Virus record (IMG/VR): IMGVR_UViG_3300045988_019467
Source: a virus
Lineage: Duplodnaviria; Heunggongvirae; Uroviricota; Caudoviricetes
Strand: one strand, 5' to 3'
DNA length: 43,946 bases
Shown one piece after another: positions 1,158-43,946 of this stretch (position 1 is its first letter; each line of letters starts with the position of its first letter). Both the position numbers and the translations under genes were made by a program. The notes beneath the pieces were generated by a model that saw nothing but the letters and a program-made list of their open reading frames with translations, searched no databases and had not been told where the DNA came from.

Positions 1158-2651
1158 ATGTTAACTATGAACGGTCAGAATCAGGGTGTTAAGACAAAAC
1201 ACTGGGAATGGCTGCATCACTTTAGTAAATGGCAGAAGGTCCGCCACGCTCTGGAAGGCGACCTTATTCGCTATCTGCGCAACGTCGGGAAGAACGAGCC
1301 TGACCCTACCTACGCGGCACAGCGCCAGGAAGAATACGAGAACGGCGCCATCTGCTACAACTTCACCAAGAGAACGCTGGCAGGGATGGTCGGCAGTGTC
1401 ATGCGCAAAGACCCTGAGCAGATTATCCCGCCTGAGCTTGAGTACCTGTTACGTAATGCAGACGGTTCCGGTGTCGGGCTGTGGCAGCACGCGCAGGACA
1501 CTTTGATGGAGATTGACTCGGTAGGCCGTGGCGGGTTGCTGGTGGACGCGCCAGAGACAGCCGCGGCAACGGCAGCCGAACAGAACGCGGGATTATTAAA
1601 CCCGGTCATTGCATTCTACACTGCTGAGAACATCATCAACTGGCGATTGACTCGCGTCGGTTCGGTTAACCGGGTGACAATGGTAGTGTTGCGTGAGGTA
1701 TGGGAATACTCGGAACCGGGTGCAGAGTTCGAAACAAAGTTCGGTGAGCAATACCGCGTTCTCGATTTGATTGACGGGCGCTACCGCCAGCGCATTTACC
1801 GCTTCGATGCCGAAGGTGGTGCTCAGGGTGAAGTAATCGAAATATTCCCGGAACTTGGCGAACAGTTGCGCGGCAAAATCCCGTTCACGTTCATTGGCGC
1901 AAGCAACAACGATGCAACCATCGACGATGCGCCTTTGCTACCGTTGGCTGAGCTCAATATCGGACATTTCCGCAACAGCGCTGACAATGAGGAATCCAGC
2001 TTCGTTGTAGGCCAGCCTACTTTGTTCATCGCCCCCGGTGAGAACATGAGCATGGAGCAGTGGAAAGAGGTTAACCCTCACGGCGTTCGTATGGGGTCGC
2101 GTTCAGGCCATAATATCGGTTACGGCGGCAACGCGTTTCTGGTTCAGGCAGGAGAGAACAACCTCGCCAAACAGAATATGCTGGATAAAGAGAACCAGGC
2201 CATCCAGATTGGCGCACAGCTTATCACCCCGACGCAGCAAATCACCGCCGAATCAGCCCGTCTGCAACGCGGCGCTGATACGTCCGTTATGGCGACAATC
2301 GCACGTAACGTAAGCATGGCTTATACAGATGCATTGCGCTGGGTAGCCGCGATGTTAGGGCTGCGTGAAGGCACAGAGATTGAGTTCAAACTGAATATGG
2401 AGTTCTTCCTGCAACCGATGACCGCGCAGGACCGTGCACAGTGGATGGCAGACATTAACGCTGGTCTGTTACCGGCTACTGCTTACTATGCTGCGTTGCG
2501 TAAAGCGGGTGTAACTGACTGGACTGACGAGGATATTCAGAACGCTATTGAAGATGCGCCGCTGCCATTAGGTGCTGTTGCTCAGGTACAGGGGGAAATT
2601 CCTGCTACAGCAAGACAGGAACAATCCCCGCAAGACCAACAGCAGCTATAA
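1158..2651 (+). CDS. portal protein (putative)
   Basis: 497-aa ORF directly after terL with RBS AAGAGGA 7 nt upstream; size and position typical of portal genes; no motif directly recognised. Confidence 0.65.
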   Translation: MLTMNGQNQGVKTKHWEWLHHFSKWQKVRHALEGDLIRYLRNVGKNEPDPTYAAQRQEEYENGAICYNFTKRTLAGMVGSVMRKDPEQIIPPELEYLLRNADGSGVGLWQHAQDTLMEIDSVGRGGLLVDAPETAAATAAEQNAGLLNPVIAFYTAENIINWRLTRVGSVNRVTMVVLREVWEYSEPGAEFETKFGEQYRVLDLIDGRYRQRIYRFDAEGGAQGEVIEIFPELGEQLRGKIPFTFIGASNNDATIDDAPLLPLAELNIGHFRNSADNEESSFVVGQPTLFIAPGENMSMEQWKEVNPHGVRMGSRSGHNIGYGGNAFLVQAGENNLAKQNMLDKENQAIQIGAQLITPTQQITAESARLQRGADTSVMATIARNVSMAYTDALRWVAAMLGLREGTEIEFKLNMEFFLQPMTAQDRAQWMADINAGLLPATAYYAALRKAGVTDWTDEDIQNAIEDAPLPLGAVAQVQGEIPATARQEQSPQDQQQL

Positions 2652-2654
2652 GAA

Positions 2655-2674
2655 AAGGCCCCGAAAGGGGCCTT
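2655..2674. terminator. bidirectional intrinsic terminator hairpin (AAGGCCCC-GAAA-GGGGCCTT)
   Basis: Perfect 8-bp GC-rich stem with GAAA loop, flanked by an A-run upstream and T-rich run downstream; sits between convergent genes; identical 20-mer at 12429..12448. Confidence 0.6.
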
Positions 2675-2678
2675 AATT

Positions 2679-2999
2679 TTATAGCTTAAGTTCTTCCGGC
2701 ACATCCGGCACGGCGTTATATTCCCACCATTCAGAACCATCGTATTCTCCGCGAGAAGACCATGTACCATCTTCGTACCAAATTACCCCGAAGAAGTTTT
2801 GACCGCCATAACCGTTGTGATATTCAAAATCAAGTGCGACCATTAGGCTTTCCCATTCTCCGCGGGAGTAATTCTCCCGCAGGATCCATTTACTCCCCTC
2901 AACGAAACCGTAATCCGCGTCATAGTCTGCAAACCAGGCGCATTTAACTACATCTTTACCATCCAGATGGGCGAGCAACTCTTCTTTAGCATTAATCAT
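2679..2999 (-). CDS. hypothetical small acidic, aromatic-rich protein (moron)
   Basis: 106-aa minus-strand ORF inside the plus-strand head module; strong RBS AAGAGGAAG upstream of ATG 2999; about 22 D/E versus about 8 K/R with many W/Y/F. Confidence 0.55.
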   Translation of the reverse strand: MINAKEELLAHLDGKDVVKCAWFADYDADYGFVEGSKWILRENYSRGEWESLMVALDFEYHNGYGGQNFFGVIWYEDGTWSSRGEYDGSEWWEYNAVPDVPEELKL

Positions 3000-5263: not shown

Positions 5264-5306
5264 AACTATTCGAATAGTTGACTTTTCACTAAAAATATGC
5301 TAAGCT
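5264..5306 (+). promoter_or_regulatory. 16-bp perfect palindrome AACTATTCGAATAGTT overlapping a sigma70-like promoter (TTGACT-17-TAAGCT)
   Basis: Perfect palindrome at 5264..5279 built from the same CTATTC/GAATAG half-sites as the repeated operator; TTGACT at 5278..5283 and TAAGCT at 5301..5306. Confidence 0.35.
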
Positions 5307-5487
5307 CCACCTGAGCTTGTGAAGTATGAACAAGCGACCGCGTCGCGGGCAGGTAACGGAGCTGGACGTAAGTCCTGAGTGTAGTTACGCTGACGCGTCC
5401 GGAAGGGCCATACTCTATTGCTTGTGTAAAAAAGTAACTGATTTACTGAGATTACGCCGTTTCTGTGTTTAAATGATAAGGACTAGC

Positions 5488-5512
5488 GCCCCGCTTTAAG
5501 GCGGGGCTTTAC
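5488..5512 (+). terminator. intrinsic terminator or attenuator hairpin just upstream of the spanin genes
   Basis: GCCCCGC-TTTAAG-GCGGGGC stem-loop followed by TTTACTT; lies 20 nt before the i-spanin RBS. Confidence 0.4.
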
Positions 5513-11255: not shown

Positions 11256-12424
11256 ATATGGCTACAACTCCTTTTAAGGGCGCGACTACCGCGCAATTCT
11301 ATGTGGCGGAAACTACCCCTGGCGTAACACCGACTAACCCGGTATGGTCGCCGTTGCGTAACACAGGTGGCGTTCCTGCTATTACCCGTGACACGCTGAC
11401 CTCCAACGAACTGGACGGCAGCCGTGAAACTACATCCATCCGAACCGGTAACAAACAGGTTAGCGGTGAATACGCGGTCGAGCTTAGCTCTAAAAGCCAG
11501 GACGACTGGCTGGCGGGTGCTTTAGGCTCTACGTGGCAATCCGGTGTTTCTCTGTCGGGGCTGTCGATTACCGTCGCACCGGTGGGCAAGACGTTCACCC
11601 GTGCCGAAGGTAGCTTTATTACTGACGGTGTGGAAGTAGGCGACCTGATTGCGTTTACTGACTTAACCGGCGATAACGCTAAACCGTTTATTGTTACTGC
11701 GGTAGAGGCACTGGTGGTAACTGGTGCGGGTATTCAACACACTCTGATCGCCGAGACTGCTACTACCGCGGCTAAGACCGGCGACAAACTGGAAACCGGC
11801 AGCCAGTGTAAGACGTTCTCTATTCTCACCTGGTACAAGGGCCAGTGCGGCGGGACAGACGCGTACACGCTTACCAAAGGCGTGGAAGTTTCTGGTTTCA
11901 CTGTTGAACAGGCCGTTAACGCGATGGTGACGGGCAGCTTCCCGTTCATCGGGCGCAGCCAGGAGATTCTTACCGCGGCGCCGTCTGGTTCCGACTTCTC
12001 CTCTGTTACGTTTGGTGACGAGCCGTTCTCCTCGGTTGACGTTTCCGTGTTCGATGGTTCTACGCCGTTGCGTTGCGACAGCCTGACCATCACCAACGAC
12101 AACAGCGCGTCCGCACAGTTCGAACTCGGCAACACTAACGTTGCATTTGTTGAGCGTAGCCGCGCGGCTAACACCTTCTCTATCTCTGGCAAGCTGTACG
12201 ACATGGCGATGATTCAGAAGTTTATCAACGAACAGCAGGTAGAGATTAACTCTATTCTGGCTGGGGTAAACGGGGCTATGTCTTTCAGTTTGAAACGTGC
12301 AGAACTCACGGCGGTCACACCGGAGATTGGCGGACCTGAGTCAATCACTCAGTCTATTGAAGGCCAGGCTACTGGCAACCAGTACCAGTCGTCTATTGTT
12401 ATCCAGCGTATCACCTACGCATAA
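11252..12424 (+). CDS. major tail (tube) protein (putative)
   Basis: 390-aa Thr/Ser/Gly-rich ORF between neck genes and the tail chaperone/tape measure genes; followed by a strong terminator. Confidence 0.5.
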   Translation: MNMATTPFKGATTAQFYVAETTPGVTPTNPVWSPLRNTGGVPAITRDTLTSNELDGSRETTSIRTGNKQVSGEYAVELSSKSQDDWLAGALGSTWQSGVSLSGLSITVAPVGKTFTRAEGSFITDGVEVGDLIAFTDLTGDNAKPFIVTAVEALVVTGAGIQHTLIAETATTAAKTGDKLETGSQCKTFSILTWYKGQCGGTDAYTLTKGVEVSGFTVEQAVNAMVTGSFPFIGRSQEILTAAPSGSDFSSVTFGDEPFSSVDVSVFDGSTPLRCDSLTITNDNSASAQFELGNTNVAFVERSRAANTFSISGKLYDMAMIQKFINEQQVEINSILAGVNGAMSFSLKRAELTAVTPEIGGPESITQSIEGQATGNQYQSSIVIQRITYA

Positions 12425-12428
12425 AACT

Positions 12429-12454
12429 AAGGCCCCGAAAGGGGCCTTTTTCTT
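12429..12454. terminator. bidirectional intrinsic terminator (AAGGCCCC-GAAA-GGGGCCTT + TTTTTCTT)
   Basis: 20-mer identical to 2655..2674 followed by a T-run; separates the tail tube gene from the convergent moron operon. Confidence 0.65.
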
Positions 12455-12629
12455 ACTCACTTTTGAATGCCATTTCGTAGAAGTTAGTTAACTGACCTCT
12501 GTCACTCCGTTCTGTCATCTCTTTTGCGGCCTCTTCCTTGCTACCTACGGCGTAAATATCAACCCACTCATCCCATTCTTCGTCATATACGCGGATAACG
12601 TATATTGTTCCCATTGTGCCTTCACGCAT
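12453..12629 (-). CDS. hypothetical small acidic protein (last gene of moron operon; start uncertain)
   Basis: ORF in frame to 12659; start placed at the internal ATG 12629 to limit overlap with the upstream gene. Confidence 0.35.
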   Translation of the reverse strand: MREGTMGTIYVIRVYDEEWDEWVDIYAVGSKEEAAKEMTERSDRGQLTNFYEMAFKSE

Positions 12630-13191
12630 TTGGGTAAATCCCCAGGATTCTATTAGCAATCGCGGCCGCTGTTAATGTAATCTCGCCTGGGATGACCACA
12701 ACGTCATGACATACCGCACCATCAATACCGTACAGGTAACCACGACTATCCCCGTCAAACGTATAGCCGTCTCTGCGCAAGCGAACGATTTTTACGTCAT
12801 GCCCTGCGGCGACGATAGGGGACACTTCACTGGCGAATCCACCGTCTGACACTACAAAAACGTCATCGCCGTCGGGCAAGTTTTCAGCAAGATACTTACC
12901 GAAATAATCGCCGCCGAGAACCGGTTTAATGAATTGCTCAGAAATGGCAATCATGAACTGACGACGAGACAAACCATTAAGGAAACCCTCTGGCTTTTCT
13001 TTCCGCGCCCGGTCGTCGTAGCCGTCGAGAAACTCGTGGTACGCATCCGGACCTAACGCTGCCAGAGCAATATTGAACATTGGATTTTTGAAACTGGTAG
13101 CACCCTTCGCAAAGCCCATTTCTACCAGCGCCATAGCAAGTGTGTCTTTCCCACAACCCGCCGGGCCATTAAGAATAATTACCTTAGCCAT
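12622..13191 (-). CDS. P-loop kinase (dNMP kinase-like or polynucleotide 5'-kinase-like)
   Basis: N-terminal Walker A GPAGCGKDT resembling phage dNMP kinase and PNK P-loops; translationally coupled to the upstream HAD gene. Confidence 0.55.
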   Translation of the reverse strand: MAKVIILNGPAGCGKDTLAMALVEMGFAKGATSFKNPMFNIALAALGPDAYHEFLDGYDDRARKEKPEGFLNGLSRRQFMIAISEQFIKPVLGGDYFGKYLAENLPDGDDVFVVSDGGFASEVSPIVAAGHDVKIVRLRRDGYTFDGDSRGYLYGIDGAVCHDVVVIPGEITLTAAAIANRILGIYPNA

Positions 13192-13676
13192 TATTTATCG
13201 CTCCCGTGTGATTTTAAGTGTGTAGAATTCCCGTTACAGTCGTATTCAGTAACCGCGTGAGTGGTTATACCGAGTCCGCGGAAATGCTTTATTACCGCCG
13301 GAGAGTCGTCGAATGCGCACAATATTCTTTCCAGCCCGATAGCACGTAACACCTCTTCTTTAATTACGATGTCTTTTCTGTTGTCGTGTTTGCTGCGCAT
13401 GATTAACTGATAAAATTCGACGCGGTGGCGCTGCAACCACATTCTGGTTTCTTTTTCTGCATCATCACTGCGACCAGTTAAAATAATAACGGCGTAGCGA
13501 CGATTAAGGGCGTTACACAGTTCGATGTTATCTCTAATTGGTTCATCATCTTTGCACGCCATGTTAAAGGGTTTCCACGCCCATGTTTCGTTGTAGTTAT
13601 CTTTCGGCAGCAGGTGTAAACGATGTGTACCATCTGCCAATGTTCCATCTAAATCGAAAATTACAATATCTTTCAT
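13191..13676 (-). CDS. HAD-superfamily phosphatase (T4 Pnkp phosphatase-like motif I)
   Basis: N-terminal IVIFDLDGTL (DxDGT catalytic motif I of HAD phosphatases, as in the T4 Pnkp 3'-phosphatase domain). Confidence 0.6.
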   Translation of the reverse strand: MKDIVIFDLDGTLADGTHRLHLLPKDNYNETWAWKPFNMACKDDEPIRDNIELCNALNRRYAVIILTGRSDDAEKETRMWLQRHRVEFYQLIMRSKHDNRKDIVIKEEVLRAIGLERILCAFDDSPAVIKHFRGLGITTHAVTEYDCNGNSTHLKSHGSDK

Positions 13677-14803
13677 CCCAGCATCTCCGGTGAAATAGTT
13701 AAACGTGCGACCTCGCCGTATTCGGCGCTATAAGTAATTACATTTGCACTGCGTCCTGACATCCATCCGCCGCGAGAGGCGTAGGCGTCTTTCGCCGCTA
13801 AGGTGCGGTGTTGCTCAACAATCATGTTACGGCTTTCTACAATCTTCTGGTGGTGCAGGTGGCCTACGTGGGCGTAGCTGTACACGCTTTCGCCAAATGC
13901 TTTGCGGAACTTGGCAATCATAACCGGTTCGATAGCGTCGAATCGTGCTTTATGCCCGTGGTGAAAGAACAACGTCGTTTTGCCGTGTTGCACCATCTTG
14001 TAAACATCCGGCGACGTATCGACGAACACACGCGGCTCATTGTCGTACAGCGTGTTGAACATCTCAGCCAGCCAAATCATACCCGATTCGTCGTGGTTCC
14101 CTTGCACGATAAGCAAGCGAACGGTTTTATGTTTAACAAGCGCCATATCAACAACACGGCGCACCATACGAATCATGTAGCGAACCAGTTTCTGATAGCG
14201 AGTATCGGCGTCCAACACATGGCGCGACTCAGGTGTAACGGCGTCCAGGCTATCGAAGTGAGCAAAGTCACCCAGCAGGTTAATAACCCCGGTTCCCGCA
14301 TCTGGTGCTTTCTGAAACGCCGCATCGAACCAGCGAGAAAACAGGTCTTCCGCAATCTTCATATCCCAGTCGTCGCCGCTCTCGTCAGCCCAGGCCAGCA
14401 TACCGAGATGGAAATCAGATACCGTGTAAAGATTGAGCAGCTTGTCGTCGCGTTTGGTGCGGGCGGCTTTAACAGGCGCAACTGGAGTAATCTCTGACTT
14501 CATGCCCTCGATTACGGCTTTCATCAATTCGACCTGACGTTCGGCATCGGTATCGGTCTTAACCCATTGCAACTTAGTGTTGCCGAACTCGTCCACAAGT
14601 GACGATGTTCCTTTAATCTTGTAGCCGTCCGGCACAAGGTGGCTAACGTCACGCCCATGACCCACGCCTTTCTTCGCCAGCTTCGCTTTACGGATACGAA
14701 TAACGCGGTCTGAGATTCCGTACTTACGTGCGATATCAATAATCTTCATTCCGGCGTTCAATTCTTCCTGTAACTGTTCGTCGGTTATTTTCTTCTGGGC
14801 CAT
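13673..14803 (-). CDS. calcineurin-like metallophosphoesterase with N-terminal HTH domain
   Basis: MPE motifs D-x-H (VSDFHLG), GDxxH (LLGDFAHFD), GNHD (VQGNHDES), HHGH and GHLHH; N-terminal HTH-like segment (IARKYGISDRVIRIRKA); start at ATG 14803 with RBS GAGGAAG. Confidence 0.6.
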   Translation of the reverse strand: MAQKKITDEQLQEELNAGMKIIDIARKYGISDRVIRIRKAKLAKKGVGHGRDVSHLVPDGYKIKGTSSLVDEFGNTKLQWVKTDTDAERQVELMKAVIEGMKSEITPVAPVKAARTKRDDKLLNLYTVSDFHLGMLAWADESGDDWDMKIAEDLFSRWFDAAFQKAPDAGTGVINLLGDFAHFDSLDAVTPESRHVLDADTRYQKLVRYMIRMVRRVVDMALVKHKTVRLLIVQGNHDESGMIWLAEMFNTLYDNEPRVFVDTSPDVYKMVQHGKTTLFFHHGHKARFDAIEPVMIAKFRKAFGESVYSYAHVGHLHHQKIVESRNMIVEQHRTLAAKDAYASRGGWMSGRSANVITYSAEYGEVARLTISPEMLG

Positions 14804-15060: not shown

Positions 15061-15092
15061 TGAATAGTACCCTATTATATTGGGGTGTGCAA
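15061..15092 (-). promoter_or_regulatory. class-1 promoter-like element, copy 3 (on minus strand: TTGCAC-N7-TATAAT-AGGGTACTATTCA)
   Basis: Same conserved motif; TATAAT on the minus strand about 40 nt upstream of ATG 15033. Confidence 0.5.
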
Positions 15093-15199
15093 GTAATATG
15101 GTAGAATAATTTTGCGCCTAGTGTCGCACACGAAAAGCGGGTGGTTCCCGTCTGGCGCATTTCCTTTAACCAGTAACCTCTTAACCAAAGGATTAAAGA

Positions 15200-15616
15200 A
15201 TGAAACTTTCTGATTTTTATTACGAAGCTGAAGCCGAAAAGGGTGCGCGTATGCCGATACCGTTAAAAGACGGTACCGATTCTGGGGAATGGCTTAATGT
15301 TGTTTCTCCTGAGGCAGACGTTGCCGTTAAGGCTATGCGCGCGTTCACCCTTGCATACCGGGCAGTGTTAGGGAAATTAAAACCGCTTCGTGATAAGTGC
15401 GAAGAGATGAAAGATTTCTCTGAATACAACCTGAAGATGGAAGATGCGGCCACGGACCTTAACCGACAGTTAGCAATTGAATTGATTAACGGGTGGAGCC
15501 TGGACGACGAATTCAATAAAGAGAATCTGAACACACTCCTGACGCAATATAAACGACTCGCGGAACTTGTTGTTGTGTTTCATAACGAACAACTGCGCCA
15601 GTTACAGGAAAAGTAG
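15200..15616 (+). CDS. tail assembly chaperone (gpG-like, putative)
   Basis: 138-aa acidic ORF immediately upstream of the tape measure gene; a -1 frame ORF overlaps its end. Confidence 0.5.
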   Translation: MKLSDFYYEAEAEKGARMPIPLKDGTDSGEWLNVVSPEADVAVKAMRAFTLAYRAVLGKLKPLRDKCEEMKDFSEYNLKMEDAATDLNRQLAIELINGWSLDDEFNKENLNTLLTQYKRLAELVVVFHNEQLRQLQEK

Positions 15617-22236: not shown

Positions 22237-24228
22237 ATGTCAAGCGGATGCGGTGATGTTTTAAGCCTGGCGGATTTACAAACCGCCAAGAAACACCAGA
22301 TTTTCGAAGCAGAGGTAATTACCGGTAAATCTGGCGGAGTAGCCGGGGGTGCAGATATTGATTACTCCACCAATCAGGTTACTGGACAGACCCAGAAGAC
22401 GTTACCTGCCGTGTTGCGCAGCCTGGGTCTAGCCCCTGCATCTTTCGATTTCACATCTGGGGGTACTTTAACTACTGACGACAGGAACAAGGCCGTGTTA
22501 TGGCCCTCTACGGACGGCGGCGACGGGGACTGGTACTATTGGGCAGGTAGTTTGCCGAAGACTATACCGGCATCATCTACACCCGCATCTTCCGGCGGTG
22601 TAGGGGGAGGCGCATGGTTGTCTGTTGGGGGGGTTATTTTACGACAGGACCTGGCTGCTTTTGGTGGAGCATCATTGATTGGTCCAGGTGTAATGTCCCG
22701 CGGAAACGATAAGTTTTCTATCATGCAAGGGAGAACCGGGGAGTATCAAAACGATGGTATGACATACGGGATAGGAGTTATCCTTACGGACCCTATCACT
22801 GGCACTATACCCAACGCCAGCACTGCAAAATTTAACTACCTTGCTATCATAGACGACCAGGTTAATGCTGTTGACGATTTAACGGCCGGGACAAAAGTTG
22901 ACGGGCTACAGGTAAACCATGTTTTCGGCGGCACCGCAGCCAAAGGTGGCAGGCACGCGGCAGAATTTGTATCTACCCATAAATCACCTACCAGTGTCGA
23001 CAACCCGGACCGTAACTATGTGGGTGTGGTTGGGTTGGCAGTGTCGCAAAATGGCGACGGAGGGGCAGTATCAACGTCCCCGAGCACATTCAAAGGTGGG
23101 TACTTTGGCGGGAATATGTACGGTAGTTTGAGCCCATCCGCCGTTGGTGTATATAACGTGACCGCATGTGAGTTTAACACAGTAGCCTCCGAAGGGTCGT
23201 CTGTATGGTATAGGTCAGGGATTCAGGTCATTGGTGGTGGGGCCGTACAAGGAAGCGCCGTAGACGTTGGGGTTGCCTTGTCGAATCTTTCGACAGCTAC
23301 GGTCCGATGGAGAAACGCCTTTCGTATAGGGAACATGAATGGGGGGCACGCGTTAGCATCGGACAGCAAAATACTTGTAGCGTTTACCGATGTGACGTCG
23401 ATCGCATCTGGGTTCGAGATACCAAAGTGCTCAACTACTATTTTAACATCCGGAGACGTTAATTTACAGAACGATAAATTAATCATGAGCGCTTCTGGGT
23501 CTGCTATTGAACTGGGAAGCACCACAGCCCCAGGTACGGCATACATAGACTTTCACTCAAGCGGAAACCCTAACGATTATGATGCAAGGGTTGTGGTTAG
23601 TGGCGGGGCGTCGTCTTCCGGGCAAGGCACTTATGGGGTTAACGCGGGTGTTATTCAGCTTAATGCTTCTACTGAAGTCATAGCCGCCGCCAACATAAGA
23701 CCCTCTACGGACAATACCATATCGAATGGCACCGCGTCTAGACGGTGGTCTGTGGTATACGCGGGAACCGGGACGATAAACACATCAAATGAAGACCTCA
23801 AAGTACGGGATAAGATACTTGAAGCCGAACGTGCCGCGGCCCTGGAAATAAAGAATGACATATGGAAATTTAGATTCAAAGATGCTATCGCCGAGAAAGG
23901 CAACGGTGCCAGGTATCACTTTGGCGTAGGTGCGCAATCTATAGGTAAAATTTTGCGTAAGCATGGACTGGACCCTGAAATGTACGCTTTCTACTGCCAC
24001 GATACCTGGGACGCGGAGTATGAGCCAATCATGGCTAAGCGTACCGTACTTAAGGACCAAGAAGTAACGGAAATAGACGACCTAACCGGCAAAACTATTA
24101 CTACCACTAAGACGATTGAAGTCGAGGAAGAGTACGACACCGGGGAAAAGAGATGCACCTTAGAGGCAGGTGAAAACTTCGGCGTTCGCTATGAGGAACT
24201 TCTTTGTTTTATTATGGCGGCCCTGTAA
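22237..24228 (+). CDS. tail fibre with C-terminal intramolecular chaperone (peptidase S74-like) domain
   Basis: C-terminal region (...RAAALEIKNDIWKFRFKD...YHFGVGAQSIGKILRKHGLDPEMYAFYCHDTWDAEY...) matches the self-cleaving chaperone domain of endosialidase and L-shaped tail fibres; Gly-rich central region. Confidence 0.65.
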   Translation: MSSGCGDVLSLADLQTAKKHQIFEAEVITGKSGGVAGGADIDYSTNQVTGQTQKTLPAVLRSLGLAPASFDFTSGGTLTTDDRNKAVLWPSTDGGDGDWYYWAGSLPKTIPASSTPASSGGVGGGAWLSVGGVILRQDLAAFGGASLIGPGVMSRGNDKFSIMQGRTGEYQNDGMTYGIGVILTDPITGTIPNASTAKFNYLAIIDDQVNAVDDLTAGTKVDGLQVNHVFGGTAAKGGRHAAEFVSTHKSPTSVDNPDRNYVGVVGLAVSQNGDGGAVSTSPSTFKGGYFGGNMYGSLSPSAVGVYNVTACEFNTVASEGSSVWYRSGIQVIGGGAVQGSAVDVGVALSNLSTATVRWRNAFRIGNMNGGHALASDSKILVAFTDVTSIASGFEIPKCSTTILTSGDVNLQNDKLIMSASGSAIELGSTTAPGTAYIDFHSSGNPNDYDARVVVSGGASSSGQGTYGVNAGVIQLNASTEVIAAANIRPSTDNTISNGTASRRWSVVYAGTGTINTSNEDLKVRDKILEAERAAALEIKNDIWKFRFKDAIAEKGNGARYHFGVGAQSIGKILRKHGLDPEMYAFYCHDTWDAEYEPIMAKRTVLKDQEVTEIDDLTGKTITTTKTIEVEEEYDTGEKRCTLEAGENFGVRYEELLCFIMAAL

Positions 24229-24232
24229 AACT

Positions 24233-24258
24233 AAGGCCCCAAACGGGGCCTTTTCTCT
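24233..24258. terminator. bidirectional intrinsic terminator (AAGGCCCC-AAAC-GGGGCCTT + TTCTCT)
   Basis: Same stem as 2655, 4609 and 12429; between the tail fibre gene and the convergent minus-strand replication module. Confidence 0.6.
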
Positions 24259-24394
24259 ACTCTTCTGATAACTTCTCCAGTACAAACTCCAGTTGCGCAT
24301 TAGCGGCATCTCTCTGTTGCCGTAGTCGTAGAACCTCCTCCTCAAGTTCCTTGATACGTTTTTGCAATGCCGGAATCGGGGCTATGATGTTCAT
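24257..24394 (-). CDS. small coiled-coil-like hypothetical protein
   Basis: 45-aa ORF whose ATG overlaps the stop of the upstream Toprim gene (ATGA); ends at the terminator. Confidence 0.3.
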   Translation of the reverse strand: MNIIAPIPALQKRIKELEEEVLRLRQQRDAANAQLEFVLEKLSEE

Positions 24395-34292: not shown

Positions 34293-34508
34293 ATGCAACC
34301 ATCTGAACTAGGCATCCGTGTAGAACAACGCCGTAAAGAACTCGGTATCTCCCAGCGCCGTCTGGCTGTCCTGACCGGCGTTTCTCAGGGCGCGATTAAC
34401 CAACTGGCACTTGGGGTAACTCAGGACGTCCGCCCGGCGACGCTGTTTAAACTGGCGGAAGTGCTGGAAGTAGACGCTAAGTGGCTGGCGTTCGGTGAAG
34501 GGGCTTAA
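34293..34508 (+). CDS. XRE-family HTH transcriptional regulator (Cro/CI-like)
   Basis: Classic HTH_XRE pattern (ELGISQRRLAVLTGVSQGAINQLALG); RBS AAGGAG; transcribed opposite to the surrounding replication operon. Confidence 0.7.
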   Translation: MQPSELGIRVEQRRKELGISQRRLAVLTGVSQGAINQLALGVTQDVRPATLFKLAEVLEVDAKWLAFGEGA

Positions 34509-34525: not shown

Positions 34526-36808
34526 CTACTCCAAATCTTCCTCTGTCACCACCAGCATTTCATTCGGTTCGTATATTGTCTTCGGCCTTAATCTATCCCC
34601 TATTCTTTCAGGTATACGATATGTTCTCGGTACTACTTCGCCGTTTGCATCGCAGCCAAGCATTAGTTCACCATCTTTCAACATTTTATCAAGATGGGTG
34701 TTAGTCACAGAGAAGTCACCAGAACGGGCCACTATCTGCTGCTGAGTAAAACCGCGTCCGGTGTCATCAGACTGTTGCAGGTCTTCCAGCGCCGAAAGTA
34801 TTGACTCCTTCCTTCCTTCATCCCTGCCGCGTTTAACCTCTTCCTTTACTTTTTCTTTACCTTTATCAGATAGCCCTTCTTCCCGCTCTTTCTCCTCGTC
34901 AGTTTTGAACGGCTCGAAGCCCCACGGCATCAACACAAGCGCCTTGTGTGGCTCTGGCAGGTCGAGGTTAACGATTGTGCCGTATTCCTCGGTGCTACCC
35001 AGGAACTCAACTGCGCGGTATTCTTTCGGCGGTGGCGCTTCACGGAACTGTACCGACTCCAGAACCATGCCAACCGTCTTCTGTTGAGGCCCGTGCTTAA
35101 ATTTAGAGTGGTATACGTTTATCTGACGGTCTGTAGCGCGTTCGATTGTCAGTTCCACGTCGACACCGGCATACAATGCCCCACTGCCACGGGCTTTCTT
35201 TCCGCCCTTCGGTGTATGGTGGACGACGCCCACCGCGGCTTTAGTTGCGTCACGTACTTCTTTCAGGATGGCGATAACTTTACCCATGCCGATTGCCGTT
35301 GATGAACTGTTCTCGTCGAACTTATCAATCGTCAGTGCCAGCGTCTGGTTGAGGGTGTCGAACGCCACCATGCCGATTGGCTCGCCCTCCGCAGTTTCGC
35401 GCATTAACTTAATCAGGTTTTTCAGTTTTCCGACTTCACCCATGTCGATGACATGTACATAATCTTTACCTTCCTCGCCATATTTAGCCGCGAGTGCGTC
35501 GATACGTGTGCGCGTAGCTGCGCCACCCTCACCGTCGATATAGAAATGGTGGCAACGCTGGGTGTCTGCCCCTGCAAACCGATATCCGGCGGCGCTGAGG
35601 TACATCATCCCCAGCGTATAGAACGACTTGTACGTACCAGACTCACCGACAATATCCCATATGCAATCTGACGGCATATACCCTTCGACGACGAAATCAG
35701 CCTTTACCGGTGCCGGTAACTCATCCTCCTCTGAGTCCTCATCGTCTTCCAGGTCGTCGAGGCTGCATGAAACAGATTCACGCGCACCCCAGCCGATAGC
35801 CTCTGCGACTTCACTGAACGGCAGGCCAGTCGCATCGCACGCATATTTCCACACCTCTTTCGGCGACATGCCTTCGGTTGCCGTAATGTCGGTGTTGTGA
35901 ATCATGGTTACGTTCGGCGCTTCATATCCTTCACGCGGGAAACACAGCAGGAAGTCGTCAGGACGCGGCGTCGGGTCGCTGTAGTTTTCTGCATGCTCTG
36001 GTGTGGCTGGCATCTTAAGGCCGCGCGGCGTCATGATGCCGCCGTACTCGAACGCCAGTGCCTCGAACGCATCAGTAAACGCGGTGCGCAGTTCTTCCGG
36101 TATCTGGTAATCCGATGCGCCGCTAACGTCAACGGCGGGGATGCCTTCCAGCAACTCGTCCGGGTCAATCAGGTCGTTGCGGCGCGACCAGATAACCTGC
36201 GAGCCGACCGGCGGCAGGTACATAGGCTGGGACAGAGTGAACCCGCTGCGGTCAGCACCCATGCCCTTAAAGAAATGCTCCAGCAACCCGTGGCGAACAC
36301 GGATGACGTCACCACCCTCAACCGGGCGGGCCAGTGGCATGACGACGCGAAAGCGCGGTGATTCATCGGTATGGGATGCCGTGGTGTAAATGCACATCGC
36401 CAGGCGGCTGCGCTTAACCAGGCGCACAGCTTCCTGGTACTCTTCCGGTGTTGCACTGTCGAAGTCCAGATACGCCAGCGACGATTTGCTTACAGACGCG
36501 TCACAGCGGTAAAAGAAGCCTTTACGCGCTTGCTTAAAGTCGCCTGTTTCCGGGTCTTTTACGGTGCTGCGTGTCGAGTCGCACGCGGCTGTGATATAGC
36601 CGGGCGCTGTCTTCGGGTTAATTCCATCACGAACAGCATCGAGCGGCTGGATTAACTCTTTCAGGTCGTCCAGTGTTGCCGTGTGTGTGGTTCTGACGTT
36701 TATATCCTTTTTCTCTGCCCGCGCGTTGCGACGGGACCAAGAGTAGGATAAAATTACATCGGACATGTTGTATATTCCTTCAGCAAGTAATTTGGCCTCG
36801 GCGTTCAC
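34526..36808 (-). CDS. DNA primase/helicase (RecA-like ATPase domain)
   Basis: 760-aa protein with Walker A-like GESGTYKS in the C-terminal half; calling the N-terminal half a primase domain is by analogy with P4-type replicases, not a recognised motif. Confidence 0.55.
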   Translation of the reverse strand: MNAEAKLLAEGIYNMSDVILSYSWSRRNARAEKKDINVRTTHTATLDDLKELIQPLDAVRDGINPKTAPGYITAACDSTRSTVKDPETGDFKQARKGFFYRCDASVSKSSLAYLDFDSATPEEYQEAVRLVKRSRLAMCIYTTASHTDESPRFRVVMPLARPVEGGDVIRVRHGLLEHFFKGMGADRSGFTLSQPMYLPPVGSQVIWSRRNDLIDPDELLEGIPAVDVSGASDYQIPEELRTAFTDAFEALAFEYGGIMTPRGLKMPATPEHAENYSDPTPRPDDFLLCFPREGYEAPNVTMIHNTDITATEGMSPKEVWKYACDATGLPFSEVAEAIGWGARESVSCSLDDLEDDEDSEEDELPAPVKADFVVEGYMPSDCIWDIVGESGTYKSFYTLGMMYLSAAGYRFAGADTQRCHHFYIDGEGGAATRTRIDALAAKYGEEGKDYVHVIDMGEVGKLKNLIKLMRETAEGEPIGMVAFDTLNQTLALTIDKFDENSSSTAIGMGKVIAILKEVRDATKAAVGVVHHTPKGGKKARGSGALYAGVDVELTIERATDRQINVYHSKFKHGPQQKTVGMVLESVQFREAPPPKEYRAVEFLGSTEEYGTIVNLDLPEPHKALVLMPWGFEPFKTDEEKEREEGLSDKGKEKVKEEVKRGRDEGRKESILSALEDLQQSDDTGRGFTQQQIVARSGDFSVTNTHLDKMLKDGELMLGCDANGEVVPRTYRIPERIGDRLRPKTIYEPNEMLVVTEEDLE

Positions 36809-36825: not shown

Positions 36826-37059
36826 TTATTCCAGGTCTTCTAAAGTAGCGGTCATTCCGCGAACTTCGGCAACGGCACTATATTTCCCGCCAACATTTTT
36901 CACGACACCGGATTTAACCAGTACACGTAACGACCCTTCAATAATGGCTGAACTATAGTACTTAAAATAACTACGGCGCAAGTCCATAACGCTGCACGAC
37001 CTTTTTTTACGGGTTAATGAAACGACCGCCGTAAATACGCGTGACTGGAACTCTGTCAT
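36826..37059 (-). CDS. hypothetical protein (C-terminal ...TLEDLE)
   Basis: 77-aa ORF; ATG overlaps the stop of the upstream gene (ATGA). Confidence 0.4.
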   Translation of the reverse strand: MTEFQSRVFTAVVSLTRKKRSCSVMDLRRSYFKYYSSAIIEGSLRVLVKSGVVKNVGGKYSAVAEVRGMTATLEDLE

Positions 37060-37226
37060 TTCACATTCTCCTTAATCCAGGCTTCCACTTTCTCCGGGTC
37101 AAACGTACCGGGCTGACGACGACCCATAATACGGATACAGCAATCAGGGAACTTCCCACTCTTTAACCAGTTATTCAGCGTGCGACGAGTAACCCCGATA
37201 CGCTCAGCTACTTCATTCTGCGTCAT
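37056..37226 (-). CDS. small HTH DNA-binding protein (AlpA/excisionase-like fold, putative regulator)
   Basis: 56-aa ORF with HTH-like segment (QNEVAERIGVTRRTLNNWLKSGKFP). Confidence 0.4.
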   Translation of the reverse strand: MTQNEVAERIGVTRRTLNNWLKSGKFPDCCIRIMGRRQPGTFDPEKVEAWIKENVK

Positions 37227-37365
37227 CTTTAATCTCCTTAATTACTTCCCGTGCGAACGCTGTAGCTGTGCCGTATTTATTAGGGCAGTATCTGCTCTCG
37301 TCATGCCCGTTAAACCACGCCTCTATCAGCAACTCTTTCAACTGTTCTTCTGTCAAAGTAACCAT
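37213..37365 (-). CDS. small hypothetical protein (first gene after the leftward early promoter)
   Basis: Start taken at ATG 37365 with RBS GAGGGT. Confidence 0.3.
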   Translation of the reverse strand: MVTLTEEQLKELLIEAWFNGHDESRYCPNKYGTATAFAREVIKEIKDDAE

Positions 37366-37397
37366 TCTCAAACCCTCATTATCAGTTAACGAAACCA

Positions 37398-37426
37398 AGT
37401 ATACATTGCGAATAATGGGAAATCAA
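37398..37426 (-). promoter_or_regulatory. sigma70-like promoter for the leftward operon (TTGATT-17-TATACT on minus strand)
   Basis: Minus-strand TTGATT (plus 37421..37426) and TATACT (plus 37398..37403) with 17-bp spacer, about 30 nt upstream of ATG 37365. Confidence 0.4.
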
Positions 37427-37703
37427 ACATAATCGCACCTATTGACATTATGAAAATCTTCGTTTAAGGTGCTTCTATATCTTAGTTACTTTGATTCCTG
37501 TTCACCTTGTAAGAATGTTTAACCCGTGCGTCAAGCAAAGGGTTAAACACAGGCTTACTGAACACAAGAATTATCGTAACTTTCCTTCCTTAGTATCTCC
37601 GGTTGCCCTGGGCAAGCTCTATTCTCATCAGCGGCATATCTCTTAAGTATCTGATTTTCTTAATGTGCCGTAGATTCGCAACCGTAAAAATGTAACGATT
37701 ATT

Positions 37704-37724
37704 GGGCAGGCTTAAGGCCTGCCC
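37704..37724. other. GC-rich hairpin (GGGCAGG-CTTAAGG-CCTGCCC) in the large intergenic control region
   Basis: Inverted repeat around a CTTAAG core, with only a short T-tract after it. Confidence 0.3.
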
Positions 37725-37805
37725 TTTAGTTACCAAGTAACAAGAATAAAGGCACAACCTTTCCTGAAGAATCACAACGGCAACGTAACCATTTTCAATG
37801 AATCT

Positions 37806-37838
37806 CTTGCGCACCCCAACATAATAGGATACTATTCA
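37806..37838 (+). promoter_or_regulatory. class-1 promoter-like element, copy 4 (TTGCGC-N7-CATAAT-AGGATACTATTCA)
   Basis: Same motif as the minus-strand copies, here on the + strand about 45 nt upstream of ATG 37870. Confidence 0.5.
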
Positions 37839-37869
37839 CTTATCGAAACGAGACAGAGGAGTGAGGGTT

Positions 37870-38061
37870 ATGTTTAAGAAGGGTCAGTTGGTTAAATACT
37901 CCGACGATAAACACGGCATAATTGAATTAAAATCTGCTTTATTTCCAGGAAAGTACGTAGTTACCGTGCAAAATGTGAGAGGAGTAAATTCACAAATATA
38001 CGTAGCGGAGGAGAACTTAAAACTAATCGGCAACAATTTTAAATTCAAAGAGGCGAAGTGA
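37870..38061 (+). CDS. hypothetical small protein
   Basis: RBS GAGGAG 9 nt upstream of ATG 37870; first gene of the rightward block. Confidence 0.45.
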   Translation: MFKKGQLVKYSDDKHGIIELKSALFPGKYVVTVQNVRGVNSQIYVAEENLKLIGNNFKFKEAK

Positions 38062-43757: not shown

Positions 43758-43946
43758 TGGATATCCCATTAACAGAACCCCAACAGGATTTTGTATTCAG
43801 TACAAAGACACATCCAGCTATTGTCGCGGGACTGGGGGCAGGCAAGTCCCGCGCGGCCACTATGCGTCTCCTGTATCTCATGTTGCGCGAGCGCGGGATA
43901 AACACCCTATACACCATGCCTACGTATGACCTGTTGAAGCTGCGCG
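43757..43946 (+). CDS. terL: terminase large subunit, N-terminal part (continues at window start)
   Basis: ATG 43757 overlapping the terS stop; Walker A GLGAGKS; frame continues into 1..1145 through the duplicated 99 bp. Confidence 0.8.
   Translation, partial: MDIPLTEPQQDFVFSTKTHPAIVAGLGAGKSRAATMRLLYLMLRERGINTLYTMPTYDLLKLR
43848..43946. repeat. 99-bp exact duplicate of window bases 1..99 (circular-closure overlap)
   Basis: Direct comparison: the last 99 nt equal the first 99 nt, and the duplication lies inside the terL coding sequence. Confidence 0.9.

What the first reader, a model, noticed from the sequence alone, without database searches (positions are those of the whole stretch)
37399..37860. 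460-bp intergenic control region between the divergent leftward and rightward blocks
This is the longest non-coding stretch. It contains a leftward sigma70-like promoter (37398..37426), a plus-strand TTGACA (37442..37447), a 9-bp inverted repeat GTTTAACCC...GGGTTAAAC (37517..37548), a GC hairpin (37704..37724), a direct repeat TAGTATCT (37576..37583 and 37643..37650) and class-1 copy 4. This density of repeats and structure is typical of a regulatory hub and possibly a replication origin.
Basis: inference. Interest (0 to 1): 0.4.

Follow-up and report, generated by a model that had tools for sequence, protein, structure and literature searches.

The report
Unannotated early RNA gene between promoters
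The half-kilobase "empty" gap between the two gene blocks of this E. coli phage holds back-to-back early promoters and a conserved, tightly folded non-coding RNA of about 250 nt that no genome record annotates; nothing in it looks like a replication origin.

Summary
The window is a complete Kagunavirus genome (Guernseyvirinae). They are parts of one transcription unit.

An invariant TTGACA-17-TAAGGT promoter (37442-37470) faces right, back-to-back with the leftward promoter. Next come a conserved CU-rich linker, a sequence-conserved second domain, and the GC hairpin plus UUUAGUU (37704-37731). The rightward genes have their own operator-bearing "class-1" promoter (37807-37835).

This non-coding DNA is 77-78% identical to Salmonella Jerseyviruses, while the primase-helicase gene is 65-66% identical. 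No ORF is conserved. Helices are kept through compensatory changes, with 54 G·U cells against 1 A·C, which points to the + strand. No Rfam family matches, and there is no host homologue.

The 5' domain is one of at least four exchangeable folds. A paralogous promoter-RNA-hairpin unit sits at 5278-5510.

Iterons and other origin features are absent.

Best reading: an immediate-early structured RNA. A trans-acting product is favoured, and a cis-acting leader/attenuator is a close rival. Function is untested.

The parts
37398..37426 (-). Leftward early promoter PL (-35 TTGATT at 37426-37421, -10 TATACT at 37403-37398). It drives the small ORF 37213-37365, the HTH_17 gene 37056-37226, the 77-aa gene and the primase-helicase 34526-36808.
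   Evidence: Scan hit with 9 of 12 matches. Both hexamers are invariant in 27 relatives. The HTH gene of a related Kagunavirus is an early gene in RNA-seq (PMC12645636).
37442..37470 (+). Rightward promoter P_A: TTGACA, 17 bp, TAAGGT. The inferred start of transcription is about 37477.
   Evidence: TTGACA and TAAGKT are invariant in 27 relatives. The motif TTGACW-N17-TAAGNT occurs only twice in the genome, here and at 5278, against 0.08 expected. The same site is annotated as a promoter in phage Jersey. The -10 hexamer matches 3 of 6 positions, so the scan did not list it.
37477..37731 (+). Predicted non-coding RNA ('RNA A'), about 250 nt. Both ends are inferred.
   Evidence: The + strand folds at -83.2 kcal/mol, z = -6.4; the minus strand gives z = -3.8. 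No ORF is conserved. The region is 77-78% identical to Jerseyviruses, against 65-66% for the primase gene. No Rfam match.
37484..37581 (+). 5' domain: a five-helix imperfect hairpin (P1 AGUUAC/GUAACU, then P2, P3, P4, P5) with a conserved 4-nt CCUU bulge.
   Evidence: MFE -37.7 kcal/mol, z = -7.2, and the MFE structure holds 50% of the ensemble. Independent folds of the E. coli-phage and Salmonella-phage versions give the same architecture. On the model-fitted alignment, 97.5% of 1072 cells are paired, 23 of 40 pairs change on both sides, and covariation is 0.549 against 0.03-0.10 when partners are slid. On the MAFFT-only alignment, 99.2% are paired against 31-50% when slid, with 3 compensatory pairs. 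G·U cells 54, A·C cells 1.
37516..37549 (+).
   Evidence: 10-bp perfect arms (I8). Relatives carry unrelated sequences here that also form hairpins.
37582..37602 (+). Conserved single-stranded CU-rich linker (UUCCUUCCUUAGUAUCU), containing the first AGTATCT copy.
   Evidence: Nearly invariant across both genera. Unpaired in all folds.
37603..37655 (+). Domain 2: small hairpin UGCC-YUG-GGCA (37604-37614), then UAUUCUCAUCGGC, the second AGTATCT copy, and the junction AAGTATCTGAT (37645-37655).
   Evidence: Sequence-conserved in all 27 relatives, including the Jersey lineage. The junction motif is shared by all RNA types and by the 5.3-kb locus.
37656..37731 (+). 3' module closed by the GC hairpin 37704-37724 (GGGCAGGC/GCCUGCCC) plus UUUAGUU. 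Terminator-like.
   Evidence: Terminator scan hit. dG -17.1 kcal/mol. Compensatory variants GGGCAGGU/ACCUGCCC occur, and the alternative 3' module carries GGGUGGGC/GCCCACCC. The tail UUUAGUUAC is invariant wherever this module is present.
37773..37789 (+). Conserved box CACAACGGCAACGTAAC just upstream of the class-1 -35 hexamer.
   Evidence: Shared by both alternative 3' modules and by most Salmonella versions. Absent upstream of the other class-1 promoters. Role unknown.
37807..37836 (+). Class-1 promoter of the rightward genes (TTGCGC-17-TACTAT), overlapped by the operator-like palindrome AATAGGATACTATT (37823-37836).
   Evidence: The palindrome occurs 10 times against 0.04 expected and always sits over the spacer and -10 of a promoter-like site.
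37858..37872 (+). Ribosome-binding site GGAGTGAGGG and the ATG (37870) of the first rightward gene.
   Evidence: ATGTTTAAGAAGGGTCAG is conserved in relatives. Downstream of it the genes differ between relatives.
5278..5510 (+). Paralogous RNA unit with the same design. It has a TTGACT-17-TAAGCT promoter (5278-5306), a folded 'B-like' domain (5311-5420), the junction AAGTAACTGAT (5432-5442) and the GC hairpin 5488-5507 plus TTTACTTAT. The RBS and ATG at 5532 follow directly.
   Evidence: BLAST of the type-B 5' domain against the window gives E = 1e-15. Sequence and scans. The same unit is present in PVP-SE2 with hairpins replaced by other hairpins, and in about 130 phage records at 60-80% identity.

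Best explanation
The gap is a compact transcription-control region built around an unannotated non-coding RNA gene.

How it is arranged:
- Host sigma-70 RNA polymerase starts leftward at PL, into the small ORF / HTH / primase-helicase operon.
- 15 bp separate the two -35 hexamers. From the second, P_A (TTGACA-17-TAAGGT), the polymerase starts rightward.
- From about 37477, P_A makes an RNA of about 250 nt with these parts: a very stable 98-nt five-helix hairpin with a variable tip; a conserved unpaired CU-rich linker; a sequence-conserved second domain ending in AAGUAUCUGAU; and a 3' module closed by the GC hairpin plus UUUAGUU, where most transcripts should end.
- The rightward genes are then served by their own operator-controlled class-1 promoter.

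How it most likely works: because P_A is followed by a terminator and then by a separate promoter, the RNA itself is the most likely product of P_A. I read it as an immediate-early, abundant, stable riboregulator that acts in trans through its conserved unpaired stretches, on a host protein or host RNA. The folded 5' domain would be an exchangeable module.

Shown here: conservation above that of neighbouring genes; absence of coding potential; base-pair covariation and strand; promoter and terminator motifs; modular exchange; a second paralogous locus.

Inferred: that the RNA is made, its two ends, that it acts in trans, and its partner.

Confidence that this is a transcribed structured RNA element rather than an origin or a loose set of repeats is about 0.85. 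Confidence that it acts in trans as a free RNA is about 0.4-0.45.
For: - Identity of the phage.
- The non-coding region is 77-78% identical between genera, against 65-66% for the primase-helicase gene. There are 450 phage records with a match and none annotates an RNA.
- No conserved ORF; ORF frames and ends differ, and the Jersey lineage has none.
- Fold: z = -6.4 for the whole RNA and -7.2 for the 5' domain on the + strand. The same architecture appears in independent folds of diverged versions.
- Covariation. Strand: 54 G·U cells against 1 A·C cell.
- Promoter: hexamers invariant. The motif is unique to the two RNA loci.
- Terminator-like hairpin with compensatory changes.
- A separate class-1 promoter lies downstream.
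- The 5' domains A, B, C and D combine freely with the 3' modules.
- High sequence conservation of unpaired segments.
Against: - No transcript data were examined, so everything about expression is inferred.
- The -10 hexamer TAAGGT matches the consensus at only 3 of 6 positions.
- The hairpin has a usable U tract only in some variants. The alternative 3' module and the Jersey lineage lack one, so a discrete 3' end is not universal.
- At the paralogous 5.3-kb locus no promoter separates the hairpin from the next gene. That fits a leader better than a free RNA.
- No convincing, conserved base-pairing target was found in the phage.
- Host targets could not be tested.
- The covariation alignment was fitted to the structure.
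Confidence: 0.45

Rival explanations
1. Cis-acting leader or attenuator. P_A would be the early rightward promoter. Its structured leader plus the GC hairpin would gate read-through into the rightward (lysis and packaging) genes. Read-through would be either spontaneous or promoted by a phage factor or by the RNA itself. The logic is that of lambda PR'-6S RNA-tR', or of the nut/put modules placed after two early promoters.
For: - At the paralogous locus the hairpin (5488-5507) is followed after 24 nt by the ATG at 5532, the first gene of the spanin/scaffold/coat block. There is no class-1 promoter in between, so that operon must be read through the hairpin.
- Several variants have hairpins without U tracts.
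- The Jersey lineage lost the terminator module but kept the core, so there the RNA must be a leader.
- Two loci with interchangeable modules recall nutL/nutR and putL/putR.
- Conservation continues beyond the hairpin up to the class-1 promoter.
- An HTH_17 (Xis/AlpA-like) protein is the first early gene next door.
Against: - At this locus a complete, conserved promoter follows the hairpin, so the downstream genes do not need P_A.
- Four unrelated folds are interchangeable, which is odd for a specific polymerase-modifying RNA.
- No boxA/boxB-like pair is conserved: GCUCUAUU becomes GCUAUAUU in the Salmonella versions.
- The HTH protein matches HTH_17, not the Phage_AlpA family.
Confidence: 0.27
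2. Generic 5' structure. The hairpin would serve only to stabilise or process the early transcript, as an RNase III-type processing site like those of T7 early mRNA or as a 5' protective stem. Any stable fold would do.
For: - Unrelated stable folds substitute for each other.
- The 5' domain is a coaxial helix of about 33 bp, 7 nt from the inferred 5' end.
- Pairing is conserved while the tips are free to vary.
Against: - Unpaired segments (the CCUU bulge, the linker, domain 2, the junction) are conserved in sequence between genera far better than a generic stabiliser needs.
- With the terminator in place there is no downstream message to stabilise at this locus.
Confidence: 0.1
3. Replication origin. 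This could be an iteron/AT-rich origin. It could also be a single-stranded DNA hairpin used as a priming signal by the adjacent primase-helicase, possibly opened by transcription from P_A.
For: - The region adjoins the primase-helicase operon.
- GC content is 39.9% against 50.7% for the genome.
- The cumulative GC-skew minimum falls at 37-38 kb.
- GTWAC occurs 6 times against 1.04 expected.
- Base-pair covariation would also fit a hairpin in single-stranded DNA.
Against: - No direct-repeat family with three or more copies. TGTTCACC is at chance level.
- Four of the six GTWAC copies form the RNA stems P1 and the stem that brackets the terminator hairpin.
- The skew minimum coincides with the switch in gene orientation.
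- A phage whose primase is 94% identical carries an unrelated 5' domain, while phages with 87-88% identical primases carry this one.
- 37656-37789 is deleted in the Jersey lineage.
- A paralogous unit lies in the late region on the same strand.
- The hairpin is framed by a conserved promoter and a terminator-like site.
Confidence: 0.07
4. Small unannotated protein genes, for example the 74-aa minus-strand ORF 37590-37814 that some records annotate, or the 51-aa plus-strand ORF 37491-37646.
For: ORFs of this size exist in the window. Homologous stretches are annotated as 'hypothetical protein' in NTEC3 and a few other records.
Against: - Starts, stops and frames differ between close relatives.
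- Single-base indels separate the E. coli-phage and Salmonella-phage versions.
- The Jersey lineage has no ORF of 35 aa or more here.
Confidence: 0.02

Closest known systems
Lambda PR' - 6S RNA - tR' late leader (own knowledge)
   Same: A strong constitutive sigma-70 promoter, a short RNA of about 200 nt ended by an intrinsic terminator, and late genes (lysis, packaging, head) downstream.
   Different: Here the RNA has a conserved, covarying fold, and a separate regulated promoter follows the terminator. No Q-like protein, qut site or -10-like pause element was recognised. The lambda leader is not known to be structurally constrained.
HK022 put RNAs and lambda nut sites (own knowledge)
   Same: Structured RNA modules placed just downstream of two promoters and upstream of terminators. 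Sequences differ while stems are kept.
   Different: put is two stem-loops of about 70 nt. nut is boxA plus a 15-nt boxB. Neither pattern is present. The modules here are 110-180 nt and come in at least four unrelated folds. No test of antitermination was possible.
Phage-encoded trans-acting small RNAs and leader-derived RNAs (DicF, P4 CI RNA, P1/P7 c4, lambda OOP; own knowledge)
   Same: Own promoter, GC hairpin at the 3' end, conserved unpaired stretches that could serve as seeds, and an exchangeable specificity domain.
   Different: Those RNAs come from temperate elements, are mostly 50-100 nt, and have known complementary targets. Here the phage is virulent, the RNA is about 250 nt, and no target was found. 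The C4 family and all other Rfam families gave no match.
phi29 pRNA (own knowledge)
   Same: An early-promoter RNA of about 170 nt whose structure is conserved among relatives with little sequence identity.
   Different: pRNA is part of the packaging motor of phages that lack a small terminase. This phage family has ordinary small and large terminase genes, and the fold is unrelated.
Phage and plasmid origins: lambda ori, P4 ori/crr, T7 primary origin, T4 oriF/oriG, RSF1010 ssi hairpins (own knowledge)
   Same: AT-rich intergenic DNA next to replication genes, a promoter nearby, and hairpin potential.
   Different: No iterons, no correlation with the initiator lineage, partial deletion in a viable lineage, and promoter/terminator framing on one strand.

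Membership tests
Any Rfam 15 RNA family | Covariance-model score at or above the family's gathering threshold | tested here: not met
   Whole window: the only hit is int-alpA at 15111-15175. Region 37350-37900 at E <= 10: only chance-level hits, Hrs12 at 19 bits against a threshold of 70 and DdR4 at 17 bits against 70. Nine relatives carrying the other RNA types: nothing.
tRNA / tmRNA | ARAGORN detection | tested here: not met
   0 genes in the window.
Sigma-70 promoter | -35 and -10 hexamers at 16-18 bp spacing | tested here: met
   PL: 9 of 12 matches. P_A: TTGACA (6 of 6), 17 bp, TAAGGT (3 of 6, with T1, A2 and T6 kept). P_A is below the scan threshold but invariant in 27 relatives, and the motif is unique to the two RNA loci. 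Activity was not tested.
Intrinsic (Rho-independent) terminator | GC-rich hairpin immediately followed by a U-rich tract | tested here: inconclusive
   Met in the window: 9-bp stem with 7 G-C pairs, dG -17.1 kcal/mol, tail UUUAGUU. The alternative 3' module (ACUGCGUUG) and the PVP-SE2 5.3-kb locus (UUAGCGUAU) have poor tails.
Structured functional RNA (generic) | Base pairs kept through compensatory changes; folding energy below that of shuffles | tested here: met
Protein-coding gene | ORF conserved in frame and extent among relatives | tested here: not met
   indels.
Iteron-type replication origin | Three or more direct repeats (iterons) next to an AT-rich stretch | tested here: not met
   Only two-copy short repeats were found. 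TGTTCACC occurs twice in the genome against 1.17 expected. The region is AT-rich, at 39.9% GC.
Origin matched to its initiator | Origin sequence type co-varies with the initiator (primase-helicase) lineage | tested here: not met
   L010 (type B) and L036 (type D) have primases 94% and 91% identical to the window's. Type-A phages L019, L025 and L016 have 87-88%.
Transcription- or RNA-primed origin / ssDNA priming hairpin | Replication start mapped at the site; dependence on the promoter or on the primase | not testable with these tools
   Needs marker-frequency analysis, 2-D gels or plasmid replication assays.
RNA anti-CRISPR (solitary repeat mimic) | Near-identity to a host CRISPR repeat | tested here: not met
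   Type I-E and I-F repeats: no match with up to 3 mismatches.
Base-pairing sRNA with a phage mRNA target | Conserved complementarity to a target, kept in relatives | tested here: not met
   The best window hit is linker against 13668-13692 (dG -30.7 kcal/mol, covering a start region). It has no counterpart in PVP-SE2, and neither does the second-best hit. Host targets were not tested.
nut / put antitermination RNA | boxA plus boxB, or two put stem-loops; read-through of downstream terminators | not tested
   No model was available. By eye, GCUCUAUU resembles boxA but is not conserved: it reads GCUAUAUU in the Salmonella versions. Function needs reporter assays.

The most novel reading that the evidence does not exclude
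Guernseyvirinae carry a family of exchangeable early RNA cassettes: the same promoter type, the same junction and 3' design, and at least four unrelated folded 5' domains, at two genome positions. These could be RNA effectors. One reading is that they are decoys or sponges that neutralise host factors or defences during takeover. The other is that they are protein-independent, put-like modules that reprogramme RNA polymerase at the heads of the late operons. Either would be a kind of phage RNA biology not yet described for virulent enterobacterial siphoviruses.
Probability: 0.2. Interest if true: 0.75.

Novelty: new member of a known kind. Interest (0 to 1): 0.5.

Why it matters
- Jerseyviruses and Kagunaviruses are among the most often isolated Salmonella and E. 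coli phages. They are used in biocontrol and therapy cocktails. At least 450 deposited genomes carry this element. None annotates it, and some place doubtful 'hypothetical protein' ORFs over it (for example in NTEC3; probably also gp54 of PVP-SE2 over the sister element).
- The non-coding stretch is better conserved than the replicative primase-helicase gene. It is strongly structured and sits behind a near-consensus early promoter, so it is likely to matter for the infection programme.
- Non-coding RNAs of virulent phages are little explored.
- Natural module swaps, the Jersey deletion and the second locus provide ready-made comparisons for experiments.
- For annotation and engineering: the gap is not free space for insertions, and it should not be assumed to be the origin.

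Tried and rejected
- **Rfam** at gathering and at E <= 10, on the window and on nine relatives: no family.
- **tRNA/tmRNA:** none.
- **P4-type iteron TGTTCACC:** one copy in the region, chance level.
- **Coding potential:** rejected.
- **Homology to E. coli genomes** for types A, B, C and D: none. Plasmid search: one 30-bp hit in a 44-kb 'plasmid' that is probably a Kagunavirus genome.
- **Pattern scan of viral contigs:** 21 contigs outside the family matched the loose pattern, but none scored with the covariance model.
- **Scan of bacterial genomes:** one hit. It is a Jerseyvirus-like contig inside a Taishania assembly, not a bacterial locus.
- **Exact repeats or complements of 11 nt or more** elsewhere in the genome: chance level.
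- **Duplex search for phage mRNA targets:** the top hits overlap ribosome-binding sites, as expected for a CU-rich probe. They are not conserved in PVP-SE2.
- **CRISPR-repeat mimicry:** rejected.
- **Long-range pairings in the 3' half:** the MFE pairing GGUUGCC/GCAACC is not kept in the Salmonella versions, and the 3' half shows little covariation because it hardly varies.
- **14-nt inverted repeat 37445-37458 / 37653-37666:** not conserved in the Salmonella versions.
- **Literature:** no paper describes an RNA here. The one Kagunavirus transcriptome study reports genes only. The search was too loose to be useful.
Full report
**What the window is.** Bases 1-99 repeat at 43848-43946, so the window is a circularly assembled genome of 43,847 bp. 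Megablast places it in Kagunavirus, subfamily Guernseyvirinae. The nearest record listed is Escherichia phage ZCEC5, at 95% identity over the matched stretch.

Left of the finding, on the minus strand, lie four genes:
- a 50-aa ORF (37213-37365);
- an HTH_17 protein (37056-37226);
- a 77-aa protein;
- a 760-aa primase-helicase (34526-36808, AAA_25 domain, phrog 'replicative helicase-primase').

On the right, small plus-strand genes start at the ATG at 37870. In the annotated relative PVP-SE2 the corresponding block continues into the holin, endolysin and terminase genes.

**Check of the observation.**
- The leftward promoter, the TTGACA, the inverted repeat, the GC hairpin and the class-1 palindrome are all at, or within a base of, the stated coordinates.
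- The direct repeat is misplaced. TAGTATCT occurs once (37591-37598). What repeats is AGTATCT, at 37592 and 37646. The stated coordinates read GTAACTTT and TTAAGTAT.
- The gap is the largest non-coding stretch. Its conserved limits are 37366 and 37869.
- Motif counts alone are unremarkable: 2 promoter-like sites against 2.9 expected, and 5 terminator-like sites against 1.3 expected.

**Conservation.** A blastn search with the gap found 450 phage records. In 238 of them the match covers at least 80% of the query. Most are Salmonella Jerseyviruses at about 79% identity. In pairwise global alignments between the window and ten Jerseyvirus loci:
- the promoter-to-hairpin stretch is 77-78% identical where the whole unit is present;
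- the primase-helicase gene is 65-66% identical;
- the 77-aa gene is 66-68% identical.

No record examined annotates an RNA here. Under the match the records list 'none', a promoter, or a hypothetical protein.

**Not coding.** ORFs in the gap change start, stop and frame among close relatives. Single-base indels separate the E. coli-phage and Salmonella-phage versions. The Jersey lineage has no ORF of 35 aa or more here.

**A structured RNA on the plus strand.**
- The stretch 37477-37735 folds at -83.2 kcal/mol (z = -6.4). Its complement gives z = -3.8.
- The first 109 nt form one imperfect hairpin (z = -7.2), and the MFE structure holds half of the ensemble.
- Sequences from E. coli and Salmonella phages, folded separately, give the same five helices:
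  - P1, AGUUAC/GUAACU, is constant.
  - P2 is UGAUUC/GAAUUA in one group and UAAGUUU/AAACUUA in the other.
  - P3 gains a compensated pair (GUUCA/UGAAC to GUUUCA/UGAAAC).
  - P4's closing pair is G-C, A-U or U-A.
- On a plain MAFFT alignment, 99.2% of cells pair, against 31-50% when partners are slid. Three pairs show double changes.
- A covariance model was built from eight E. coli-phage sequences and aligned to 27 distinct loci. On that alignment 97.5% of 1072 cells pair, 23 of 40 pairs change on both sides, and the covariation score is 0.549 against 0.03-0.10 when slid. This alignment is fitted to the structure, so it leans towards it.
- G·U cells number 54 and A·C cells 1. The plus strand is therefore the folded one.
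- The 3' half varies little, so its pairings are poorly tested. The terminator stem shows one compensated pair, and the alternative module carries a wholly different stem.

**Transcription signals.**
- TTGACA and TAAGKT, 17 bp apart, are invariant.
- The motif TTGACW-N17-TAAGNT occurs only twice in the genome, at 37442 and 5278, against 0.08 expected.
- The -10 hexamer is weak by consensus (3 of 6), but it keeps T1, A2 and T6.
- The hairpin at 37704-37724 (dG -17.1 kcal/mol) is followed by UUUAGUU.
- Next come a conserved box (37773-37789) and the class-1 promoter TTGCGC-17-TACTAT. The palindrome AATAG-N4-CTATT overlaps its -10 hexamer. That palindrome has 10 copies in the genome, most of them over the spacer and -10 of promoter-like sites.
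- In a related Kagunavirus, an HTH-domain gene (K1B4_008), probably the counterpart of the HTH gene next to PL, is one of four early genes (PMC12645636).

**Modularity and a second locus.** Other Kagunaviruses carry unrelated folded sequences at the same position, behind the same kind of promoter: type B, type C (K1H) and type D. All are joined through a shared junction, AAGYNACUGAU, to one of two 3' modules. The combinations seen are A, B or D with module 1, and A, B or C with module 2.

The Jersey lineage lost the equivalent of 37656-37789 by recombination between GTATCTGA and GTAACTGA.

Type B has a paralogue elsewhere in most members of the subfamily, including this window. That unit consists of:
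- the promoter TTGACT-17-TAAGCT (5278-5306);
- a folded domain (5311-5420);
- the junction AAGTAACTGAT (5432-5442);
- the GC hairpin 5488-5507 plus UUUACUUAU;
- then, with no promoter in between, the RBS and the ATG at 5532, at the head of the spanin/scaffold/coat block.

In PVP-SE2 the same unit has its hairpins replaced by other hairpins.

Outside this phage subfamily nothing was found in viral contigs, E. coli genomes or plasmids. The single 'bacterial' hit is a Jerseyvirus-like contig.

**Origin hypothesis.**
- In favour: the neighbouring replication genes, AT-richness (39.9% against 50.7% GC), and the cumulative GC-skew minimum at 37-38 kb.
- The skew turns exactly where gene orientation turns, so it does not discriminate.
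- There are no iterons.
- GTWAC is enriched (6 copies against 1.04 expected), and four of the six copies form RNA stems.
- The RNA type does not track the primase lineage.
- Part of the region is dispensable in the Jersey lineage.
- A single-stranded DNA priming hairpin, or a transcription-activated origin, would also show covariation. I cannot exclude this by sequence, and I rate it at about 0.07.

**Mechanism.** Two readings compete.

For this locus I favour a free RNA product. P_A is followed by a terminator-like hairpin whose tail is invariant wherever this module is present. A complete, separately regulated promoter then follows, so the RNA is the only obvious product of P_A. The sequence conservation of the unpaired segments points to specific contacts.

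The other reading is a cis-acting leader or attenuator. The 5.3-kb unit supports it, because there the downstream operon must be read through the hairpin. Hairpin variants without U tracts and the Jersey deletion point the same way.

Searches for base-pairing targets in the phage gave nothing conserved. Mimicry of CRISPR repeats was excluded. I therefore put the trans-acting RNA at 0.45, the leader/attenuator at 0.27, a generic stabilising or processing hairpin at 0.10, an origin at 0.07 and coding at 0.02.

**Comparison and novelty.**
- In layout the unit most resembles lambda PR'-6S RNA-tR'. In having two interchangeable RNA modules after promoters, it resembles nut/put.
- It is not a member of any curated RNA family.
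- It is best filed as a new family of phage-encoded structured RNA, a new member of a known kind. Its exchangeable-cassette organisation is unusual.
- No paper in the searchable library describes it.

**Caveats.**
- No expression data were analysed.
- Both RNA ends are inferred.
- The relatives are closely related, so many of the 'changes' are inherited rather than independent events.
- The 3' half of the structure is unsettled.

Noticed in passing
window 5278-5510 (+): A second promoter-structured RNA-GC hairpin unit, paralogous to the 'type B' cassette of other Kagunaviruses. It lies directly upstream of the ATG at 5532 (spanin/scaffold/coat block) and is conserved in both genera. PVP-SE2 annotates a 39-aa 'gp54' over it, which is probably spurious.
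   Followed up: partly
window 15111-15175 (+): The only Rfam hit in the genome: the int-alpA RNA motif (36.6 bits, threshold 35.8). It lies in the leader of the gene starting at 15200 and diverges from a class-1 promoter at 15063. This is unexpected in a virulent phage with no integrase.
   Followed up: no
window 3027, 5182, 15063, 21315, 27639, 31219, 34204, 37823, 38859, 39018: The palindrome AATAG-N4-CTATT occurs 10 times against 0.04 expected. It overlaps the spacer and -10 of two promoter classes: TTGCAN-17-TACTAT (five copies) and TTGACA-17-TATAGT (three copies). This suggests one dimeric regulator controls most promoters. Candidates are the 71-aa XRE-type protein at 34293-34508 and the HTH_17 protein.
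   Followed up: partly
window 5264-5279: A perfect 16-nt palindrome, AACTATTCGAATAGTT, abuts the -35 hexamer of the 5.3-kb RNA promoter. It uses the same half-sites as the class-1 operator in the opposite arrangement.
   Followed up: no
window 37870 onward; loci L001-L045: The first rightward gene keeps its ribosome-binding site and its first 8-9 codons (MFKKGQLV) in relatives. After that it continues into unrelated sequences, which looks like cassette exchange at a conserved boundary.
   Followed up: no
window 37213-37365 (-): An extra 50-aa ORF (phrog_20928) lies between the HTH gene and PL. It is present only in a few relatives (ZCEC5, EF2-1). In the others the same leader and start codon belong to the HTH gene.
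   Followed up: partly
window 13668-13692 (-) versus 37578-37603: The CU-rich linker of the RNA can pair (dG -30.7 kcal/mol, z = -6.2) with the ribosome-binding site and start codon of the 161-aa gene 13191-13676. No counterpart exists in PVP-SE2, so this is probably chance.
   Followed up: yes
window 37445-37458 / 37653-37666 and 37353-37362 / 37485-37494: Two long-range inverted repeats: 14 nt at 93% complementarity, and 10 nt at 100%. They link the promoter spacer, or the upstream ORF, with parts of the RNA. The first is not conserved in the Salmonella versions.
   Followed up: partly
window 1-99 = 43848-43946: An exact 99-bp duplication at the window ends. It is an assembly overlap of a circular or permuted genome, not a biological repeat.
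   Followed up: no
window 2648-2684, 12422-12458, 24226-24262: Three copies of a GC hairpin (GGCCCCGAAAGGGGCC) with A/T runs on both sides. They look like bidirectional terminators.
   Followed up: no
L089 (NZ_JACVEL010000022.1, Taishania pollutisoli) and CP088689.1: A 19-kb scaffold of a Bacteroidota genome assembly is syntenic with this phage, which suggests a Jerseyvirus-like contaminant. A 44-kb E. coli 'plasmid' record matched only 30 bp of the region (the conserved box); from its size it may be a Kagunavirus genome, which was not checked.
   Followed up: partly
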